NCBI GenBank assembly: GCA_035652395.1
Contig: DASRDX010000012.1
Coordinates: forward strand, 96,778-160,777
Length of the DNA: 64,000 nt
DNA from: Minisyncoccota bacterium
GTDB taxonomy: Bacteria; Patescibacteriota; Minisyncoccia; Phycocordibacterales; CAJBRS01
Direction: 5' to 3'
A program made the translations under genes and the position numbers. Under the pieces are notes generated by a model. It was not told the origin of the DNA. It saw nothing but the letters and a program-made list of their open reading frames with translations, and searched no databases. Shown here one piece after another: positions 1-61,953 of this stretch (positions are counted from its first letter, which is position 1; each line of letters begins with the position of its first letter).

Positions 1-64
1 TCGGGATCGAACCGAGGACCTTCTCCTTAAAAGGGAGCTGCTCTACCAGCTGAGCTACGGGCGG
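1..64 (-). tRNA. tRNA-Lys (anticodon TTT), partial; its 3' end is cut off by the window edge
   Basis: The reverse complement reads as a D-arm GCTC-AGCTGGTA-GAGC, an anticodon loop CTTTTAA and the start of a T-arm CTCGGTTCGATCCCGA. Confidence 0.8.
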
Positions 65-4716: not shown

Positions 4717-4744
4717 ACGGCGAGTTCAAAAATGAACTCGCCGT
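4717..4744. terminator. 12-bp perfect hairpin (ACGGCGAGTTCA-aaaa-TGAACTCGCCGT) between tsaE and the GC-rich gene
   Basis: Perfect inverted repeat lying at the end of the convergent minus-strand gene 4771..5643. Confidence 0.6.
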
Positions 4745-4770
4745 ACTGTCAGGATTCGAACCTGAAAGAT

Positions 4771-5643
4771 TTAACCTCGGCGTGGATGGCTACCGGGCGG
4801 TCTTTGCATTGGAGCATGTGGCGCCGATGCATAGTGATTGCCGCTGTTGATCTGATTACCGATGGCAACGGTGATACCGTTGAGGATCCCCCCGAACACA
4901 TTGCCCGAACCGTGCGAATTATATCCGCCGGGTCCCCCGCCGTAACCATAAGGTCTTGGCGGCGGGAACGAATTCGTGGCGTACGATTCGAATCGTCCAG
5001 AAGGTTGTTGCAGACTCGCGACATAAGCTTCCGCTTGCGCGTGCGTCATCTTCACTTCCCGGACATTGCCGTAGCAGTCATGGACGCGAACGATGACACA
5101 ATCAACCGGAGCCTTTCGCAGATGAATCTCGGCGTGGCGCGGTTGTGGCGGTGCGGGTTGTTCCTCCACAAAGGCAATCATGTTCTTGTACGCTTTGCCG
5201 TTACGCATGCATCCATCGATATAGATGGGCTGCTTGGTGGCTGTATCGTAGTAGATCATGGCCGAAGCGCTGAGCGGAACAATTTCCGCCTTGTGAAGCA
5301 TCTGGTTGTAGACCAGCCGCCCCGTCCATCCGAGCTCGGCTGCCGATTTGTATCCGAGCCCTTCCAGGCATTCAGGTCCGGTGTAAGGATGACGTCCTTT
5401 GAAAACGCTGAGCGGGGCATACCCTTGAGGGGTTCCGTAACGGCCACGGCTGACATCGGGTTTCGGCCGGTGAGAGTCGCGGGTCGTTGTGACGGTTGCG
5501 ATCGTCATGTTTTCGCTTGAATCGTTTTGCTCGGCCGAAAGACGGTCGAGTTCGGCCTGAAGCTTGTCTTCGTTGTTTTGGGCCTTGAGGTTATTGACGC
5601 TGGCAAGAGCCAGCAGACTGACAAAGAGCAGAAGCTGTTTCAT
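4771..5643 (-). CDS. secreted hypothetical protein with a Gly-rich C-terminus, encoded in a high-GC island
   Basis: 290 aa. N-terminal signal peptide MKQLLLFVSLLALASV and a C-terminal GYGGGPGGYNSHGSGNVFGG stretch. Local GC is about 58% against about 42% in the flanks, so every frame is open here; this frame is chosen because of the signal peptide. Confidence 0.5.
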   Translation of the reverse strand: MKQLLLFVSLLALASVNNLKAQNNEDKLQAELDRLSAEQNDSSENMTIATVTTTRDSHRPKPDVSRGRYGTPQGYAPLSVFKGRHPYTGPECLEGLGYKSAAELGWTGRLVYNQMLHKAEIVPLSASAMIYYDTATKQPIYIDGCMRNGKAYKNMIAFVEEQPAPPQPRHAEIHLRKAPVDCVIVRVHDCYGNVREVKMTHAQAEAYVASLQQPSGRFESYATNSFPPPRPYGYGGGPGGYNSHGSGNVFGGILNGITVAIGNQINSGNHYASAPHAPMQRPPGSHPRRG

Positions 5644-5805: not shown

Positions 5806-7488
5806 ATGGTTCAATTCAACGAAGAAAAACAGAAGGCTCGCCTGGCCGACCTGAAAAAGAGCGAAGAGGAAAAGCTGGCGGAAATCTTATCTGGAAAATA
5901 CGGCCTTCAGTACATTGATCTTTCTCGCATCACCATTAACACAGATGCCCTGCGTCTTATTCCGGAAGAAGCCGCCCGTCGCAATAAAATGGCTGTTTTT
6001 GATGTGGTTAATAAAAATATTCGAGTGGCCATTCAGACCCCGAACAATCCTTCAACGACTGAAACTTTAAATGAACTAAAAGAAAAAGGTTACTTCCCGA
6101 TCGTCTACATGGTTTCAACTGAAAGTTTGGAAAAAGCCTGGAGTCGTTACAAAGATCTTTCCTTCGCTCTTGAAACAAAGGCCGGCTCTCTGGATATTTC
6201 CAATCAGGAAATTGAAACTTTTCTGCATCAGGTAAACAGCATGCAGGATATTCAAAAATTAATTAATGAGGCTCTGACAATTAAGAAAACTTATCGTATC
6301 TCGCGCGTTTTAGTGATCATCATGGCCGGCGCGCTTTCCTTAAAAGCATCTGATGTTCATATCGAACCGGAAGAAGACCATACTCGCTTGCGCTATCGTC
6401 TGGATGGAGTCTTGGTAGACGTGCTGAATTTTGATAATGAAACTTATAATCTGCTCCTTTCGCGCATTAAACTCCTTTCCAACCTGAAATTAAATATTAA
6501 AGAAAATGCCCAAGACGGTCGTTTCAGTATTTTAGTTTCGGGAGACGAGATCGAAGTGCGTACTTCCGTTTTACCCGGAAATTATGGCGAGTCCATCGTG
6601 CTCCGTTTACTAAATCCAAAATCAATTACCGTGCCCCTTGAAGAACTGGGTATTGAACCGCGCCTTTTCAAAATTCTGGAGGCGGAAATTAACAAACCAA
6701 ACGGCATGATTCTAACCACCGGTCCGACCGGTTCCGGAAAGACCACCACCCTCTATTCTTTTATGCGCCGTATTTACAATCCGGAAATTAAAATTCTGAC
6801 TATTGAAGATCCCATCGAGTATCACTTGGCCGGCATTGTTCAGACGCAGGTAGAACCGAAGAAAGGCTACACCTTCGTTTCCGGATTAAGAGCGGCTCTT
6901 CGACAAGACCCTGATGTCATTATGGTTGGAGAAATTCGAGATGAAGAGACGGCCGAAATTGCCATTAATTCCTCTCTTACCGGTCACTTGGTATTCTCCA
7001 CCCTTCACACCAACGACGCCGCCGGTACTTATCCTCGTCTAATTGATCTCGGAGTAAATCCAAAAGTGCTCTCGTCGGCTATTAATGTTTCTATCGCTCA
7101 GCGTCTGGTGCGAGTGCTATGCCCTGTTTGTAAAAAAGAAGTGGCAGTTCCCGCCAGTACGAAAACCACTTTGGAAAAAGTAATTGCTTCAATTTATTTG
7201 GAAGAATTTCGAGTGCCGGTAAAAACTATGTATGAGCCGGTGGGCTGTTCGGAATGTCATCATCAAGGCTTTAAAGGCAGAATCGGAATTTTCGAAGCCA
7301 TTTTAACGGACGAAAAAATTGAACAAGTAGTCAAAGAAAACCCAAGCGAGCGAGAAATTAGAATCGCGGCGAGACCTCAAGGAATTTTAACTATGGAGCA
7401 GGACGGGGTGCTAAAAGTTTTGAAGGGCGTCACTTCTCTTTCCGAACTTGGCCGCGTGGTAAACATCGAACAGTATTTGAATCTGTAA
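5806..7488 (+). CDS. pilB: type IV pilus assembly / type II secretion ATPase (PilB/GspE family)
   Basis: 560 aa. N-terminal GSPII_E_N-like domain, Walker A GPTGSGKTTTL, Asp and His boxes, C-terminal tetracysteine CPVCKK...CSEC. Confidence 0.85.
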   Translation: MVQFNEEKQKARLADLKKSEEEKLAEILSGKYGLQYIDLSRITINTDALRLIPEEAARRNKMAVFDVVNKNIRVAIQTPNNPSTTETLNELKEKGYFPIVYMVSTESLEKAWSRYKDLSFALETKAGSLDISNQEIETFLHQVNSMQDIQKLINEALTIKKTYRISRVLVIIMAGALSLKASDVHIEPEEDHTRLRYRLDGVLVDVLNFDNETYNLLLSRIKLLSNLKLNIKENAQDGRFSILVSGDEIEVRTSVLPGNYGESIVLRLLNPKSITVPLEELGIEPRLFKILEAEINKPNGMILTTGPTGSGKTTTLYSFMRRIYNPEIKILTIEDPIEYHLAGIVQTQVEPKKGYTFVSGLRAALRQDPDVIMVGEIRDEETAEIAINSSLTGHLVFSTLHTNDAAGTYPRLIDLGVNPKVLSSAINVSIAQRLVRVLCPVCKKEVAVPASTKTTLEKVIASIYLEEFRVPVKTMYEPVGCSECHHQGFKGRIGIFEAILTDEKIEQVVKENPSEREIRIAARPQGILTMEQDGVLKVLKGVTSLSELGRVVNIEQYLNL

Positions 7489-7550
7489 TCACCGCAATAT
7501 TGACAATTCCTTTTATTTATGATAGGATATTGGAGAAAGTAATTTCTAAA

Positions 7551-7771
7551 TCGACAATATAAATCTCTCAGCAATTAGCTCCGCAAGGAGCTACTGGTTC
7601 TTCTTAGAGGACACTCTGGTGCCTCTCTCCGAGAACAGCATCTAAGCAAGGAGAATAACCCAACCCTTCCAAAATGATGTTTTTGGAGAGGGGTTGCTGG
7701 TGTTATCCTTACAAGAAGTGCTTAACTTTTGATCACATTGAAAGCATTGCTGAGAGATTTATCTTGTCGAT
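7551..7771. repeat. 221-bp element bounded by 25-bp terminal inverted repeats; candidate structured ncRNA or MITE-like element
   Basis: TCGACAATATAAATCTCTCAGCAAT at 7551-7575 and its reverse complement at 7747-7771 (1 mismatch). The interior holds a GNRA hairpin AGCTCC-GCAA-GGAGCT and a CCAAAA...TTTTGG hairpin. Weaker complementarity extends about 30 nt further out on both sides. Confidence 0.5.
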
Positions 7772-7872
7772 TTTCTATTTTCATCCTATTCAGCTAAAAA
7801 ATAACTGCAAGCTTTTCAGTGGGGAAAAGTTGTGTTCTGGTAAAGTGAGCGGTTAAAAAAGTCATCGGTTTT

Positions 7873-8919
7873 TTGTGTTATGCTTTTGTCATGACAGAAA
7901 GTAAAGCGCCCGCTGGCGAAGAAAAAGTCTTTGTGGAAGATCAGGCCCTTGATCAGACTTTGCGGCCGACGAAATGGGCCGACTATGTTGGACAGGAGCC
8001 AATTAAACAAAATTTAAATATTCTTCTTTCAGCGGCTAAAGAAAGAAATCATCCACCTGAACACGTTTTATTCTACGGTCCGCCCGGTTTGGGCAAGACC
8101 ACTCTAGCGCACCTTATTTCCAAAGAAATTGGCGCCCAAATGAAGATTACTTCCGGCCCGGCCATTGAACGGGTTGGCGATTTGGCTTCCATTCTGACCA
8201 ATCTTTCAGCCGGCGACATTTTATTTATAGATGAAATTCATCGTCTTAATAAGGCGGTGGAGGAAATTCTTTATCCGGCCATGGAGTCGGGAGTTTTGGA
8301 TATTATTATCGGCAAGGGTCCGTCCGCTCGCACCATTCAGCTGGATTTGCCCCAATTCACTTTGATCGCGGCTACTACTCGAATTGCCCTACTCTCTTCC
8401 CCGCTTCGCTCTCGTTTCTCCGGTGGAGTTTTCCGTCTGGAGTTTTATACCGAAAAAGAAATCGAGGAAATTGTTCGACGCTCGGCTAAAATCTTAAAGA
8501 TTGATATTGATGAAGGAGCGATTAAAGAGATTGCCAAGCGCAGTCGCTTTACACCGCGAACCGCCAACTATCTCTTAAAACGCTGTCGCGATTATGCCCA
8601 AATCAAAAAGGTCACTCTTTCCAAAGAGATGGTGCTGGAGGCTCTGAAACTTCTCGGCATTGATGAAGTTGGGCTTTCCAATTCGGACCGACTGCTTCTC
8701 GAAACTATTATTAATAAATTCAGCGGCGGTCCGGTCGGTCTAAATACTTTGGCCGCCTCTCTCTCCGAGGAAGAGGCGACCATCGAAGAATTCAATGAGC
8801 CTTATCTCATTCAAATCGGTTTTTTGGAGAGAACGGCCCGCGGCCGCACAGCCACCCCTCGCGGCTACCAGCATTTAAAAGTTAAGATGCCTGATCACCT
8901 ACAGGAGAAACTCTTGTAG
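7873..8919 (+). CDS. ruvB: Holliday junction branch-migration helicase RuvB
   Basis: 348 aa. Walker A GPPGLGKTTLA and RuvB-type AAA+ layout with a C-terminal winged helix. Confidence 0.9.
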   Translation: MCYAFVMTESKAPAGEEKVFVEDQALDQTLRPTKWADYVGQEPIKQNLNILLSAAKERNHPPEHVLFYGPPGLGKTTLAHLISKEIGAQMKITSGPAIERVGDLASILTNLSAGDILFIDEIHRLNKAVEEILYPAMESGVLDIIIGKGPSARTIQLDLPQFTLIAATTRIALLSSPLRSRFSGGVFRLEFYTEKEIEEIVRRSAKILKIDIDEGAIKEIAKRSRFTPRTANYLLKRCRDYAQIKKVTLSKEMVLEALKLLGIDEVGLSNSDRLLLETIINKFSGGPVGLNTLAASLSEEEATIEEFNEPYLIQIGFLERTARGRTATPRGYQHLKVKMPDHLQEKLL

Positions 8920-8958: not shown

Positions 8959-9279
8959 ATGGAACCACAGCCGGGTTTTTATTATCACTACAAACATGAT
9001 TCGACGAAAGGCGTTTTTGATTATGCCTATGAAGTTTTAAATATCGGCCACCATACCGAAATTGAAGATTGGAAAGCCGGAGAGATGGTGGTTTATCGTC
9101 CACTTTATGAAAGTGCCCAAGTTTATCAATCCGGTAAACACTGGGATGTTCGGCCGCGAGCTATGTTTTTAGAATCGGTGATTAAAAACGATAAGACGTT
9201 CCCGCGTTTTCAAAAAATTACGGACTCAAAAATAATTTCCAAACTTGAAAATCAAGTTAAAAAATTATATAAAAACTAA
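8959..9279 (+). CDS. DUF1653-like small protein
   Basis: 106 aa. GFYYHYK...YEVL...VVYRPLY pattern typical of DUF1653. Confidence 0.45.
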   Translation: MEPQPGFYYHYKHDSTKGVFDYAYEVLNIGHHTEIEDWKAGEMVVYRPLYESAQVYQSGKHWDVRPRAMFLESVIKNDKTFPRFQKITDSKIISKLENQVKKLYKN

Positions 9280-9306
9280 GCCTTTTACTTTTAACTTTTA
9301 ACTGAA

Positions 9307-9837
9307 GTGTCCGGCCACAATAAATGGTCACAAATTAAACATCGAAAAGCTGCCACTGATGCCAAGAAAAGTCAGCTTTTTTCGAAGTTGGGGCGTTTAA
9401 TTACAGTGGAATCCAAAAAGGCGGCCGGCAAGACCAGCTCGCCCAGTTTGGCGGTAGCGATTGAGAAAGCTCGCAAAGAAAATATGCCCAAAGACGTAAT
9501 TGAGCGAGCGATTAAAAAAGGAACGGAAAGCAATACCGGTTCAATGGAAGCCATTACCTACGAAGCATATGGCCCGGGCGGATCAGCCATTATGATTGAA
9601 GTGCTCACTGACAATCGAAATAAATCAGCCCAAGAAATGAAATTTATTCTCTCTAAAAATGACTCTTCGCTTGCCGGCATTGGGGCCGCCAGCTGGGCTT
9701 TTGAAAGAAAAGATCGAGAATGGCTGCCAAAAACTACAGTTCAATTAGAGGATAGCGATTTGGAAAAACTAGAAAAGCTGGTGGATGAGCTTGAAAGTAA
9801 TGAAGATGTTCAGGCCGTTTTCACTAATGTAGAATAA
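9307..9837 (+). CDS. yebC: YebC/PmpR-family transcriptional regulator, shortened
   Basis: 176 aa. N-terminal MSGHNKWSQIKHRKAATDAKK and C-terminal NEDVQAVFTNVE match the family; about 60 aa of the middle domain is missing. Confidence 0.75.
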   Translation: MSGHNKWSQIKHRKAATDAKKSQLFSKLGRLITVESKKAAGKTSSPSLAVAIEKARKENMPKDVIERAIKKGTESNTGSMEAITYEAYGPGGSAIMIEVLTDNRNKSAQEMKFILSKNDSSLAGIGAASWAFERKDREWLPKTTVQLEDSDLEKLEKLVDELESNEDVQAVFTNVE

Positions 9838-9841
9838 TGAT

Positions 9842-10318
9842 ATGAAAATCTTGGCAGTTGATCCGGGGTATGAGCGATTGGGGGTAGCAATTATAAAGAA
9901 GAATCCCGGAGAAAAAGAGCGAGTTATTTATTCCAACTGTTTCAAAACTTCAGCCAAGCAACCCTTTGAAGAAAGGTTACTTTTAATTGGTCAGGAGATT
10001 AAAAGACTGATTAAGGAGTTTGAACCGGCGGCTTTGGCTATTGAAACTTTGTATTTCACCAATAATCAGAAGACTGCCATGCATGTCTCCGAGGTTCGGG
10101 GAGTAGTTACTTACGAAGCACTGTGTGCCAGCATGAAGTTATTTGAATACACCCCTCTTCAAATTAAAGTGGCGGTGACTGGCTACGGTGGCGGCGATAA
10201 AAAGCAGGTTATTTCCATGATCGAGAAGTTGGTGACTATCGATAAAAATATTGCTCACGACGACGAGTACGACGCCATTGCCGTCGGCTTGACTTACTTT
10301 GCCACAGCTCGTCTTTAG
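9842..10318 (+). CDS. ruvC: crossover junction endodeoxyribonuclease RuvC
   Basis: 158 aa. MKILAVDPGYERLGVAI start and the conserved yebC-ruvC adjacency. Confidence 0.8.
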   Translation: MKILAVDPGYERLGVAIIKKNPGEKERVIYSNCFKTSAKQPFEERLLLIGQEIKRLIKEFEPAALAIETLYFTNNQKTAMHVSEVRGVVTYEALCASMKLFEYTPLQIKVAVTGYGGGDKKQVISMIEKLVTIDKNIAHDDEYDAIAVGLTYFATARL

Positions 10319-61215: not shown

Positions 61216-61244
61216 TTGACACTGAATATGAAAGATGTTATAAT
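61216..61244 (+). promoter_or_regulatory. consensus sigma70-type promoter TTGACA-17 nt-TATAAT
   Basis: Exact hexamers at 61216-61221 and 61239-61244. Confidence 0.6.
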
Positions 61245-61250
61245 CAATAA

Positions 61251-61380
61251 AACATTCACATTAGAAAAAATGTAGCCGATTACAAACGGGAACCCAGAGG
61301 GAAATGGCAAGTACCGTCAATTCTTCGGTGATGAGGTTCTTTGTATAGAGCCCCTCATATTTTTATGAGGGGCTCTTTGC
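61251..61380 (+). ncRNA. candidate small RNA, about 125 nt, running from the consensus promoter to the intrinsic terminator
   Basis: Ends in AGAGCCCCTCAT-attttt-ATGAGGGGCTCT followed by TTT. No ORF longer than 14 codons. The same hairpin is the clpP terminator on the other strand. Confidence 0.4.
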
Positions 61381-61953
61381 TTAATTCAAAACCTTATCAA
61401 TAATGCCGTATTTCTTGGCTTCCTCGGCGTTCATCCAGAAATTTCGGTCAACGTCCTTTTCAATCTTGCTCAAAGGCTGACCCGTATTTTTAGCCAGCAT
61501 TTTATTTAGAATTTCCCGATTTTTCAGAATTTGTTTGGCCGTAATTTCAATGTCCGAGGCCTGACCTTCCACGCCACCGGACGGCTGATGAATCATGATT
61601 TCGGAATTAGGCAAAGTAAATCGTTTGCCCTTCTTGCCGGCAGATAGAATCATTGCTCCCATGGAAGCGGCTACGCCGACGCAAATCGTAGAGATATCAT
61701 TCTTAACATGATTCATCGTATCAATAATGGCCATACCGGCTGTCACCATGCCACCCGGGGAATTAACATAAAGATTGATATCTTTTTTCGGATCTTCCGA
61801 TTGCAGAAATAAAAGCTGGGCAATAACAATATTAGCCACATTATCATCAATTGGGCCGCCCAAAAAAATAATATTTTCGCGCAAAAGGCGAGAGTAAATA
61901 TCGTAAGCGCGTTCGCCGAATTGGGATTTTTCAATAACTGTTGGAATAAGCAT
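61381..61953 (-). CDS. clpP: ATP-dependent Clp protease proteolytic subunit
   Basis: 190 aa with catalytic Ser (AASMGA) and His (MIHQP). Confidence 0.9.

What the first reader, a model, noticed from the sequence alone, without database searches (positions are those of the whole stretch)
7520..7800. Inverted-repeat-bounded 221-bp structured element between pilB and ruvB
Perfect 25-bp (1 mismatch) terminal inverted repeats at 7551-7575 and 7747-7771, extended by weaker complementarity. The interior is full of local hairpins, including a GNRA-capped stem AGCTCC-GCAA-GGAGCT, and contains no credible ORF. It is either a long helix closing a structured non-coding RNA or a MITE-like mobile element.
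Basis: seen in the sequence. Interest (0 to 1): 0.5.

Follow-up and report, generated by a model that had tools for sequence, protein, structure and literature searches.

The report
New structured small-RNA gene beside ruvB
The inverted repeat is the 28-bp closing helix of a small RNA gene with its own promoter, from a family absent from Rfam 15 that lies next to ruvB in every sampled genome of one clade of ultra-small Paceibacteria; its function is unknown.

Summary
Arms 7548-7575 and 7746-7773 are 28 nt with 1 mismatch; no shuffle matched them, and the fold z-score is about -10.

It is not a MITE, an invertible switch or a chance palindrome. It is an independently transcribed, structured small RNA on the + strand.
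- **Promoter:** near-consensus, TTGACA-17-TGnTAGGAT, at 7500-7528.
- **Fold:** a four-way junction. P1 is the 28-bp closing helix and P2 a GCAA-capped hairpin. A long P3 arm has a conserved AGGA/UCCU core and a tandem G.U. P4 is a hairpin.
- **3' end:** a U-rich tail follows P1.

Homologues exist in all 15 close relatives sampled through RuvB. At least 118 metagenome contigs also carry one, always a single copy and always next to ruvB. Covariation is strong, and G.U pairs outnumber A.C 83 to 10, which fixes the strand.

Rfam 15 and six literature searches found nothing.

Two features are specific to this genome. The whole promoter-plus-RNA cassette (about 345 bp) is flipped relative to every relative. 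The P3 tip carries a roughly 75-nt expansion, shared only with L205.

Function is unknown. My best guess is a protein-binding RNA, with a 6S-like RNA-polymerase decoy as the leading specific candidate (about 0.3).

The parts
7500..7528 (+). Sigma-70-type promoter of the RNA: -35 TTGACA 7500-7505, 17-nt spacer, extended -10 TG 7520-7521, -10 TAGGAT 7523-7528
   Evidence: 10 of 12 matches, TG present. Only 2 such sites occur in 64 kb against 0.1 expected. The same motif lies upstream of the RNA, on its own strand, in 119 of 127 relatives.
7534..7547 (+). Predicted 5' leader; transcription start inferred at about 7534-7537
   Evidence: Inferred from the usual 6-9 nt distance from the -10 element. 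No expression data.
7548..7575 (+). P1, 5' arm of the closing helix
   Evidence: Covariation in P1: 16 of 25 pairs change on both sides, 96% of cells paired.
7576..7593 (+). P2 hairpin UAGCUCC-GCAA-GGAGCUA (GNRA loop on this strand)
   Evidence: The stem is compensated in the close relatives L202 (AGGCCC/GGGCUU) and L205 (GGAUCC/GGAUUC), both with a GCAA loop. It is short and weak in most of the family.
7596..7605 (+). P3a, 5' strand (base of the long arm); pairs with 7713-7722
   Evidence: Family-wide, P3a is 77% paired against 50% in shuffles (maximum 55%), with 208 double-change cells against 84.
7607..7620 (+). P3b (GAGGA) - bulged C7612 - P3c (ACUCUGGU), 5' strands; conserved core
   Evidence: AGGA/UCCU is invariant. 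The tandem wobble U7617.G7699 / G7618.U7698 is present in 11/11 and 10/11 of the sequences not selected by pattern.
7621..7695 (+). Lineage-specific expansion of the P3 tip (about 75 nt, a 16-bp helix plus terminal region)
   Evidence: The stretch between the two core motifs is 77 nt here, 4-20 nt in L001-L010 and 61 nt in L205. Fold.
7696..7710 (+). P3c and P3b, 3' strands (GCUGGUGU-UA-UCCUU)
7713..7722 (+). P3a, 3' strand
7726..7744 (+). P4 hairpin CUUUUGAU-CAC-AUUGAAAG
   Evidence: CUUU/AAAG is replaced by CCCGAC/GUCGGG in L006. In A4, 5 of 6 pairs change on both sides.
7746..7773 (+). P1, 3' arm of the closing helix
7774..7785 (+). U-rich tail (UCUAUUUUCAUC) after P1; with P1 it resembles an intrinsic terminator
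   Evidence: In the family, a T-run of 6 or more follows P1 in 51% of loci on the sense strand against 7% on the antisense strand. The tail is weak in this genome: two runs of 4 U.
7815..7839 (+). Second hairpin CUUUUC-AGUGGG-GAAAAG plus U-rich tract; possible back-up terminator
   Evidence: Window 7807-7835 matches L202 2087-2059 in reverse orientation. In L202 that stretch is the hairpin just after the pilB stop codon.
7495..7840 (.). Segment inverted relative to all relatives (promoter, RNA and distal hairpin)
   Evidence: BLAST of the window against L202, L204, L205 and L206: the flanks are colinear and the interior is reversed. The breakpoints are approximate.

Best explanation
The element is the gene for a stand-alone, highly structured small RNA. 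From the predicted start to the U-tail it is about 250 nt in this genome. P1-to-P1 length is 142-226 nt across the family, median 158.

**How it is made.** It is transcribed on the + strand from a near-consensus extended -10 promoter at 7500-7528. It folds into a compact four-way junction. P2 is a short hairpin. P3 is a long arm with a conserved AGGA-C-NNNN-UGGU / ACUG-NNNN-UA-UCCU core containing a tandem G.U. P4 is a hairpin. P1 plus the following U-tract probably ends transcription.

**Family.** It belongs to a family absent from Rfam 15. The family is restricted to one Paceibacteria clade, with a divergent relative in one Parcubacteria genome. It is single-copy and always adjacent to ruvB. 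In this genome alone, the whole promoter-plus-RNA cassette is inverted between pilB and ruvB.

**Shown:** the repeat, homology, covariation, strand, conserved promoter motif and synteny.

**Inferred:** transcription, the 5' and 3' ends, and function.

**Function (inference).** Almost no conserved sequence is single-stranded; conservation sits in helices. So the RNA most likely acts in trans as a protein-binding scaffold or decoy, not as a base-pairing regulator. The leading specific candidate is a 6S-like decoy of sigma-70 RNA polymerase. My probability for that sub-claim is about 0.3. The confidence figure below refers to 'a conserved, independently transcribed structured sRNA gene'.
For: - **Homologues in relatives sampled through RuvB.** All 10 closest RuvB loci carry an IR-bounded homologue upstream of ruvB. 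So do 5 of 5 loci holding the closest RuvB relatives (88-91% identity), including two contigs with the same RuvB.
- **Covariation on the 11 sequences not selected by pattern.** 89.9% of cells are paired against 77.1% in shuffles. 31 pairs change on both sides against 15.6. 0 of 500 shuffles reach the observed value, and slid controls give 40-51%.
- **Covariation on 100 sequences.** 93.5% paired, 214 double-change cells against 66.
- **P3a.** 77% paired against 50% in shuffles.
- **Strand.** G.U to A.C is 83:10 in the unbiased set and 305:58 in the large set. The covariance model scores 91-125 bits on the sense strand and 34 or less on the antisense strand.
- **Promoter.** TTGACA-16/17-TGnTAnnnT lies upstream on the sense strand in 119 of 127 relatives. 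Only 2 such sites occur in the 64-kb window.
- **Terminator-like tail.** A T-run of 6 or more follows P1 in 51% of loci on the sense strand against 7% on the antisense strand.
- **Abundance and copy number.** About 118 were confirmed by the model, one copy each.
- **Divergent member.** L014 has the same promoter, position and four-helix layout, with a P1 that is compensated throughout.
- **6S-like features.** Size; a strong promoter; a closing helix made from the two ends; a long apical arm; a hairpin on the 3' side of the central region, as described for canonical 6S RNA (PMC8414754); and the strongest conservation in the inner closing helix, where 6S templates its product RNA.
Against: - There are no expression data. 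The promoter, start site and terminator are predictions.
- Several 'invariant' columns in the 100-sequence alignment were imposed by my search pattern. That alignment was also fitted to the model.
- Against the 6S sub-claim:
  - No Rfam 6S model matches, even at E <= 10.
  - The 5' side of the central region forms a hairpin (7 bp with a GNRA loop in this genome) instead of an open bulge.
  - P1 is an almost perfect duplex without the bulges typical of 6S closing stems.
  - There is no evidence for product RNAs.
- The unbroken linkage to ruvB could mean the function is local rather than global.
Confidence: 0.85

Rival explanations
1. The RNA gene is mainly a cis-acting control device for ruvB. 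Its strong promoter overlaps the ruvB start and promoter head-to-head, so RNA polymerase at one excludes the other. The two 5' ends are antisense to each other. On this view the structured body only stabilises or terminates the transcript.
For: In the 119 relatives with the motif, the -35 TTGACA is the reverse complement of the first codons of ruvB: ATGTCAA in 105, with GTG or TTG start in 11. In 63 of 119, an extended -10 on the ruvB strand (mostly TGCTATAAT) lies 17-35 nt downstream of the predicted RNA start. Adjacency to ruvB survives changes of the other neighbour in L205, L187, L196, L127, L178 and L014.
Against: In this window the cassette is flipped and about 360 bp from the ruvB start, yet the RNA is intact. 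In L202 the RNA promoter lies about 100 bp upstream of the ruvB start, with a long hairpin between them, so nothing overlaps. A simple terminator or stabiliser would not need four covarying helices and an invariant internal core.
Confidence: 0.12
2. It is a MITE-like non-autonomous transposable element bounded by terminal inverted repeats.
For: It has 28-bp terminal inverted repeats around about 170 bp of non-coding, hairpin-rich sequence.
Against: There is one copy in the 64-kb window and one per contig in about 130 loci. It is always at the same locus beside ruvB. The only pattern match in viral contigs failed the covariance model. Changes in the arms are compensatory and include many G.U pairs, which is RNA-level selection. 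The promoter lies outside the repeats.
Confidence: 0.01
3. It is an invertible DNA switch (inverton): a site-specific recombinase flips a segment between the inverted repeats, and this genome was caught in the other state.
For: The segment is bounded by inverted repeats and lies next to a gene start. This genome has the opposite orientation to all relatives.
Against: The flipped segment (about 7495-7840) extends beyond both repeat arms. It includes the promoter and a distal hairpin, so the repeats are not the crossover sites. No inverted repeat flanks the flipped segment. All 127 other loci tabulated share one orientation, as do the five closest RuvB relatives. No recombinase was identified among the neighbouring genes examined (pilB, ruvB, DUF1653, yebC, ruvC, tyrS). 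G.U wobble pairing and interior covariation are not expected for recombination sites.
Confidence: 0.02
4. It is a fortuitous palindrome, or just an elaborate intrinsic terminator for pilB or ruvB, with no RNA product of its own.
For: A U-rich tract follows the 3' arm. The scan also flags the P2 hairpin as terminator-like.
Against: The element is conserved with covariation across RuvB identities of 63-91%, plus L014 at 62%. It has its own conserved promoter. In relatives it is transcribed towards pilB, on the strand opposite to pilB, and many loci have separate terminator hairpins.
Confidence: 0.02

Closest known systems
6S RNA (ssrS; Rfam RF00013 and related 6S models)
   Same: - Length of about 150-250 nt, single-copy, with a strong housekeeping-type promoter.
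- The 5' and 3' ends pair into a long closing helix, and there is a long irregular apical arm.
- A hairpin sits on the 3' side of the central region, as described for canonical 6S RNA (PMC8414754).
- The strongest sequence conservation is in the inner closing helix, where 6S templates its product RNA.
- In lactic acid bacteria, 6S is syntenic with rarA, which that paper describes as a replication-associated recombination protein (PMC8414754). Here the neighbour is ruvB.
   Different: - No match to any Rfam 6S model at E <= 10.
- The 5' side of the centre forms hairpin P2, giving a closed four-way junction instead of an open bubble.
- The closing helix is almost perfect.
- There is no product-RNA evidence.
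Bacterial Y RNAs (YrlA and related, partners of Rsr/Ro)
   Same: The RNA ends form a long stem that closes a multi-helix module of similar size. A protein-binding mode of action is presumed.
   Different: No rsr/Ro (TROVE) gene was seen among the neighbouring genes examined. P4 has no tRNA-like T-loop sequence. There is no Rfam match.
Orphan structured bacterial RNAs such as the raiA motif / ModT
   Same: A clade-wide, about 200-nt, multi-helix RNA with its own promoter and terminator, found by comparative analysis and of unclear biochemical function (PMC11706538 abstract).
   Different: Different fold and sequence, a different phylum (Patescibacteria), and a strictly fixed locus beside ruvB.
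Retron msr-msd non-coding RNA
   Same: Terminal inverted repeats (a1/a2) pair the ends of a 150-250-nt RNA that contains small hairpins and one long hairpin (from my own knowledge of retrons).
   Different: No reverse-transcriptase gene is adjacent. The neighbours are pilB and ruvB in about 130 loci. It is inherited vertically as a single conserved locus.
MITEs and invertons (fimS-type switches)
   Same: A short non-coding segment bounded by inverted repeats of about 25-30 bp. One genome shows the opposite orientation.
   Different: Single copy, fixed locus, RNA-type covariation, and an inversion whose ends lie outside the repeats.

Membership tests
Any Rfam 15 family | Score at or above the family's gathering threshold with its covariance model | tested here: not met
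   The window scan found 5 tRNAs only. The region at E <= 10 gave only noise: rli38 at 21.5 bits against 49 needed. L001 at E <= 10 gave noise only. Thirteen relative loci at gathering threshold gave 0 hits.
6S RNA | Sequence and structure match to RF00013 or related 6S models | tested here: not met
   No 6S hit at E <= 10 on either strand of the window element or of L001.
6S RNA | Closing stem, large central region and long apical stem; hairpin on the 3' side of the centre | tested here: inconclusive
   P1, the P3 arm and P4 fit this layout (description in PMC8414754). However, the 5' side forms P2, which is stable in this genome (7 bp plus GCAA) and only 3-4 bp in most members.
6S RNA | Binds sigma-70 holoenzyme and templates 14-20-nt product RNAs | not testable with these tools
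   Needs biochemistry or small-RNA sequencing.
MITE | Multiple dispersed copies in a genome | tested here: not met
   One copy in 64 kb and one sense hit per contig in about 130 loci, with contigs up to 474 kb but only 15 kb or less held per locus.
MITE | Variable insertion sites with target-site duplications | tested here: not met
   It is always next to ruvB, between pilB and ruvB in most loci. No direct repeats flank the arms.
Inverton / invertible promoter | Inversion end-points lie in the inverted repeats | tested here: not met
   The inverted segment, about 7495-7840, extends beyond both arms.
Inverton / invertible promoter | Both orientations present in a population; recombinase nearby | not tested
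   No read-level data. No recombinase was identified among the neighbouring genes examined.
Intrinsic terminator (as sole function) | G+C-rich hairpin followed directly by a U-tract, with nothing else conserved | tested here: not met
   A U-tract follows P1 in about half of the members. But about 100-170 nt of covarying internal structure and a dedicated promoter are also conserved.
Structured non-coding RNA gene (generic) | Conserved secondary structure supported by compensatory changes, beyond controls | tested here: met
   0 of 500 shuffles reach the observed values, and slid controls give 33-51% paired against 77-94% observed.
Structured non-coding RNA gene (generic) | Own transcription signals on the strand indicated by G.U pairs | tested here: met
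   The promoter motif is present in 119 of 127 loci, G.U to A.C is 83:10, and the T-run asymmetry is 51% against 7%. These are sequence predictions, not expression data.

The most novel reading that the evidence does not exclude
The RNA is functionally tied to Holliday-junction processing. It is a compact four-way-junction RNA with two long arms (at least 25 bp each) and two short arms, and it has stayed next to ruvB through every rearrangement seen. It could act as a junction mimic or regulator of the RuvAB(C) machinery. This would be a class of RNA decoy for a DNA-repair motor, not a 6S-type or generic scaffold RNA.
Probability: 0.05. Interest if true: 0.85.

Novelty: new variant of a known kind. 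Interest (0 to 1): 0.62.

Why it matters
Patescibacteria (CPR) have very small genomes of about 0.6-1 Mb and shed most dispensable functions. Six full-text searches for structured non-coding RNAs or 6S RNA in this group found nothing.

This RNA is present in every sampled genome of a widespread groundwater and sediment Paceibacteria clade, and it is driven by one of the strongest promoter matches in the region. It is therefore likely to do something important.

- If it is the clade's 6S equivalent, it would extend that regulator to CPR in a divergent, four-way-junction form.
- If not, it is an orphan RNA class, with a covariance model and over 130 sequences, and biochemistry could start from these.

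The flipped cassette in this genome is also a natural experiment. It separates the RNA product from the overlapping-promoter arrangement with ruvB.

Tried and rejected
- **Rfam 15.** Four scans of the window, the region, L001 and 13 relative loci gave no family.
- **Extra copies.** An arm search and BLAST in the window found none.
- **Viral contigs.** One pattern match (L201) failed the covariance model, as did L088 from the metagenome scan; both are chance matches.
- **More distant Patescibacteria.** With model filters off, loci L013, L016, L020, L021, L023, L042, L049, L053 and L066 gave only plain hairpins near ruvB. Only L014 holds a real, divergent relative.
- **Exact-protein look-up.** The 342-aa RuvB was not on record, so I went through homologues instead.
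- **P2 and P3a column scan.** Reading P2 and P3a from the model-fitted alignment by columns failed, because those regions were not in the model. Anchoring on the AGGA/UCCU core worked for P3a.
- **P2 family-wide.** Support is only modest: 4.6 bp against 3.8 bp in shuffles.
- **RuvA.** This is uninformative, since ruvA may lie elsewhere.
- **Literature.** Six full-text searches found nothing on 6S or structured RNAs in Patescibacteria, or on a ruvB-associated motif.
- **Considered and dropped:**
  - Riboswitch or 5' leader of ruvB: in relatives the RNA points away from ruvB.
  - Retron: no reverse transcriptase.
  - SRP RNA: the apical tip is variable, not a conserved GNRA.
  - tRNA-like or Y RNA: no T-loop and no Ro gene.
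  - Small protein: the ORFs are not conserved.

Full report
**1.

The window has a 28-nt inverted repeat with one mismatch, at 7548-7575 and 7746-7773, with 170 nt between the arms. The arm sequence occurs nowhere else in the 64 kb, and no shuffle produced a match. BLAST of the element against the window finds only itself. The GCAA-capped hairpin is at 7576-7593. Region 7540-7785 folds at -98.9 kcal/mol against -55 for shuffles, z = -9.9. The reverse strand folds nearly as well, so folding alone cannot give the strand. The flanking genes are a PilB-type ATPase (5806-7488) and RuvB (7891-8919). The two short ORFs that touch the element have no family match.

**2. It is conserved, and relatives revealed its orientation**

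The best RuvB matches among species-representative genomes are Paceibacteria/Parcubacteria MAGs. All ten loci with 73-78% RuvB identity carry a homologous repeat-bounded element just upstream of ruvB. Their arms share the core ATAAATCTCTAAGCAAT / ATTGCTTAGAGATTTAT and change in a compensatory way, for example in L008 and L010.

The window's + strand aligns with the strand opposite to ruvB in every relative.

**3. Structure and strand**

RNAalifold and explicit pair counts on these 11 sequences, none chosen by any RNA pattern, support three helices:
- a closing helix P1;
- a core helix AGGA-C-NNNN-UGGU / ACUG-NNNN-UA-UCCU;
- a hairpin P4.

The figures are 89.9% of cells paired against 77.1% in shuffles, and 31 pairs with changes on both sides against 15.6. 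No shuffle out of 500 reaches the observed value, and slid controls give 40-51%.

The core contains a tandem U.G/G.U that is present in 11/11 and 10/11 sequences. On the other strand these would be A.C mismatches. Overall, G.U pairs outnumber A.C 83 to 10.

A covariance model built from the trimmed alignment scores 91-125 bits on this strand and 34 or less on the other.

A further helix, P3a, joins the strands flanking the core. Anchored on the core, positions 6-12 on either side are 77% paired against 50% in shuffles (maximum 55%), with 208 double-change cells against 84.

P2 is a short hairpin next to the 5' arm. It is well supported in the window's own subclade: AGCUCC/GGAGCU, AGGCCC/GGGCUU and GGAUCC/GGAUUC, all capped by GCAA. 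Family-wide it is only marginal.

The result is a compact four-way junction with linkers of about 1-4 nt.

**4. It is a gene with its own signals**

TTGACA-17-TGaTAGGAT lies at 7500-7528. Only one other such site exists in the 64 kb, against 0.1 expected. The same motif lies upstream of the RNA, on its strand, in 119 of 127 relatives.

A run of six or more T follows P1 in 51% of loci on the sense strand against 7% on the antisense strand. P1 therefore probably doubles as a terminator in much of the family. Here the tail is weaker (UUUUCUAUUUUC), and a second hairpin follows at 7815-7832.

These are sequence predictions. I have no expression data.

**5. Breadth and copy number**

About 118 were confirmed by the model at 49-117 bits, with one sense-strand copy each.

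Columns fixed by that pattern (AGGA, TGG, CTG, TCCT, GAGATT) say nothing about conservation in that set. Covariation at the free positions remains strong: 93.5% paired, and 214 double-change cells against 66.

More distant Patescibacteria ruvB loci have only ordinary hairpins there. The exception is L014 (62% RuvB identity). It has the same promoter type, the same position and orientation, and a four-helix RNA whose P1 keeps AAAU...GCAA / UUGC...AUUU with a compensated centre.

The single viral-contig pattern match failed the model.

**6. Context**

In all 119 loci where ruvB was found, the RNA is divergent from it. In most loci it also converges on pilB. Where the other neighbour differs (ruvC in L205; other genes in L187, L196, L178, L127, L014), the RNA still sits beside ruvB.

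In 116 of the 119 loci with the motif, the -35 hexamer is the reverse complement of the first codons of ruvB (ATGTCAA in 105; GTG or TTG starts in 11). In 63 of 119, a ruvB-strand extended -10 lies 17-35 nt downstream of the predicted RNA start. The two promoters therefore overlap head-to-head.

**7. What is special here**

Even the closest relatives (88-91% RuvB identity; L202-L206) have the canonical divergent arrangement. Compared with them, the window has the segment of about 7495-7840 reversed. That segment holds the promoter, the RNA and a hairpin which in L202 follows the pilB stop codon. Both flanks are colinear.

The break-points lie outside the inverted repeat, and no other repeat flanks them. 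So this is neither a repeat-mediated flip nor the kind of assembly artefact a 28-bp repeat could cause. It looks like a recent lineage-specific inversion.

The P3 tip is also expanded: 77 nt lie between the core motifs against 4-20 in L001-L010 and 61 in L205. The extra sequence forms a 16-bp extension of the arm.

**8. What it is not**

- **Not a MITE:** single copy, fixed locus, RNA-type covariation.
- **Not an inverton:** see section 7. All 127 other loci tabulated and the five closest relatives share one orientation.
- **Not a chance palindrome or bare terminator:** conserved interior and its own promoter.
- **Not a ruvB leader or riboswitch:** it points away from ruvB in every relative.
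- **Not a member of any Rfam 15 family**.

Six full-text searches found no description of it.

**9. Likely mechanism (inference)**

Conserved nucleotides sit almost entirely in helices and small internal loops. These are the inner P1, the AGGA/UCCU core with a one-by-two internal loop, and the tandem G.U. The junction linkers are short and variable. This argues for recognition by a protein, or a tertiary fold, and against base pairing with mRNAs.

The most specific candidate is a 6S-like RNA-polymerase decoy. The size, the strong promoter, the closing helix from the two ends, the long apical arm, the 3'-side hairpin and the conserved inner closing helix all fit the canonical description (PMC8414754). 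Three things count against it: no 6S model matches, the 5' side forms a hairpin, and P1 lacks bulges. I put this at about 0.3.

A cis role through promoter competition with ruvB is plausible for the canonical arrangement. It cannot be the whole story, because the RNA is intact in this genome and in L202, where the overlap is gone.

A speculative reading is that a four-way-junction RNA kept beside ruvB acts on the Holliday-junction machinery. The evidence does not exclude it, and I give it about 0.05.

**10. Verdict**

This is a real, conserved, structured small-RNA gene of a family not in Rfam 15 and not found in the literature searched. Its function is unknown. I rate it a new variant of a known kind: a stand-alone structured bacterial sRNA, possibly 6S-like. 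I do not rate it categorically new, because no new mechanism has been shown. Interest is moderate to high for RNA and CPR biologists.

Noticed in passing
window 61216-61381 (+): This is the only other perfect TTGACA-N17-TGnTATAAT promoter in the 64 kb. About 130 nt without a long ORF follow it (a 14-codon ORF behind GAGGG is possible). Then comes a strong hairpin-plus-U terminator that abuts the stop codon of clpP (61381-61953, minus strand). It is a candidate second small RNA or micro-ORF, with no Rfam hit.
   Followed up: partly
window 7876-7893: An extended -10 (TGtTATGCT, 7876-7884) ends 6 nt before the ruvB ATG at 7891, so ruvB may be transcribed as a leaderless or nearly leaderless mRNA. 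The same TGTGTTATGCT...ATG arrangement is present in L202.
   Followed up: no
L001-L010 and most of L081-L200, at the ruvB start: In relatives, the -35 hexamer of the RNA promoter is the reverse complement of the first two codons of ruvB (ATG TCA). Often a TGCTATAAT promoter for ruvB lies inside the RNA's 5' leader. The two promoters are head-to-head, overlapping and mutually exclusive.
   Followed up: partly
L014 2616-2838 (minus strand): A divergent member or cousin of the family in a 'Parcubacteria group' MAG with 62% RuvB identity. It has the same promoter type and the same four-helix layout, but the AGGA...UCCU core is replaced by GGGAAC...GUUCC. Fold z-score is -4.4.
   Followed up: partly
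L202 2405-2480: In the closest relative, a long near-perfect hairpin (GGAGGGCCTGACTAAATTGTTTCC...GGAACAATTTAGTCAGGCCTCC) lies between the RNA promoter and ruvB. It is absent from the window.
   Followed up: no
window 4732-5643: Two long overlapping ORFs on opposite strands (4732-5520 +, 262 aa; 4771-5643 -, 290 aa). Neither has a Pfam match, so it is unclear which, if either, is the gene.
   Followed up: no
window 1-64 (minus strand): A tRNA gene is cut by the start of the window: Rfam gives 43.7 bits, truncated at the 3' end. ARAGORN does not report it.
   Followed up: no
window 8959-10318: The gene order ruvB - DUF1653 - yebC - ruvC is conserved in relatives. No ruvA was found in the 64 kb, using a crude tblastn plus Pfam on a few ORFs. 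ruvA may simply lie elsewhere.
   Followed up: partly
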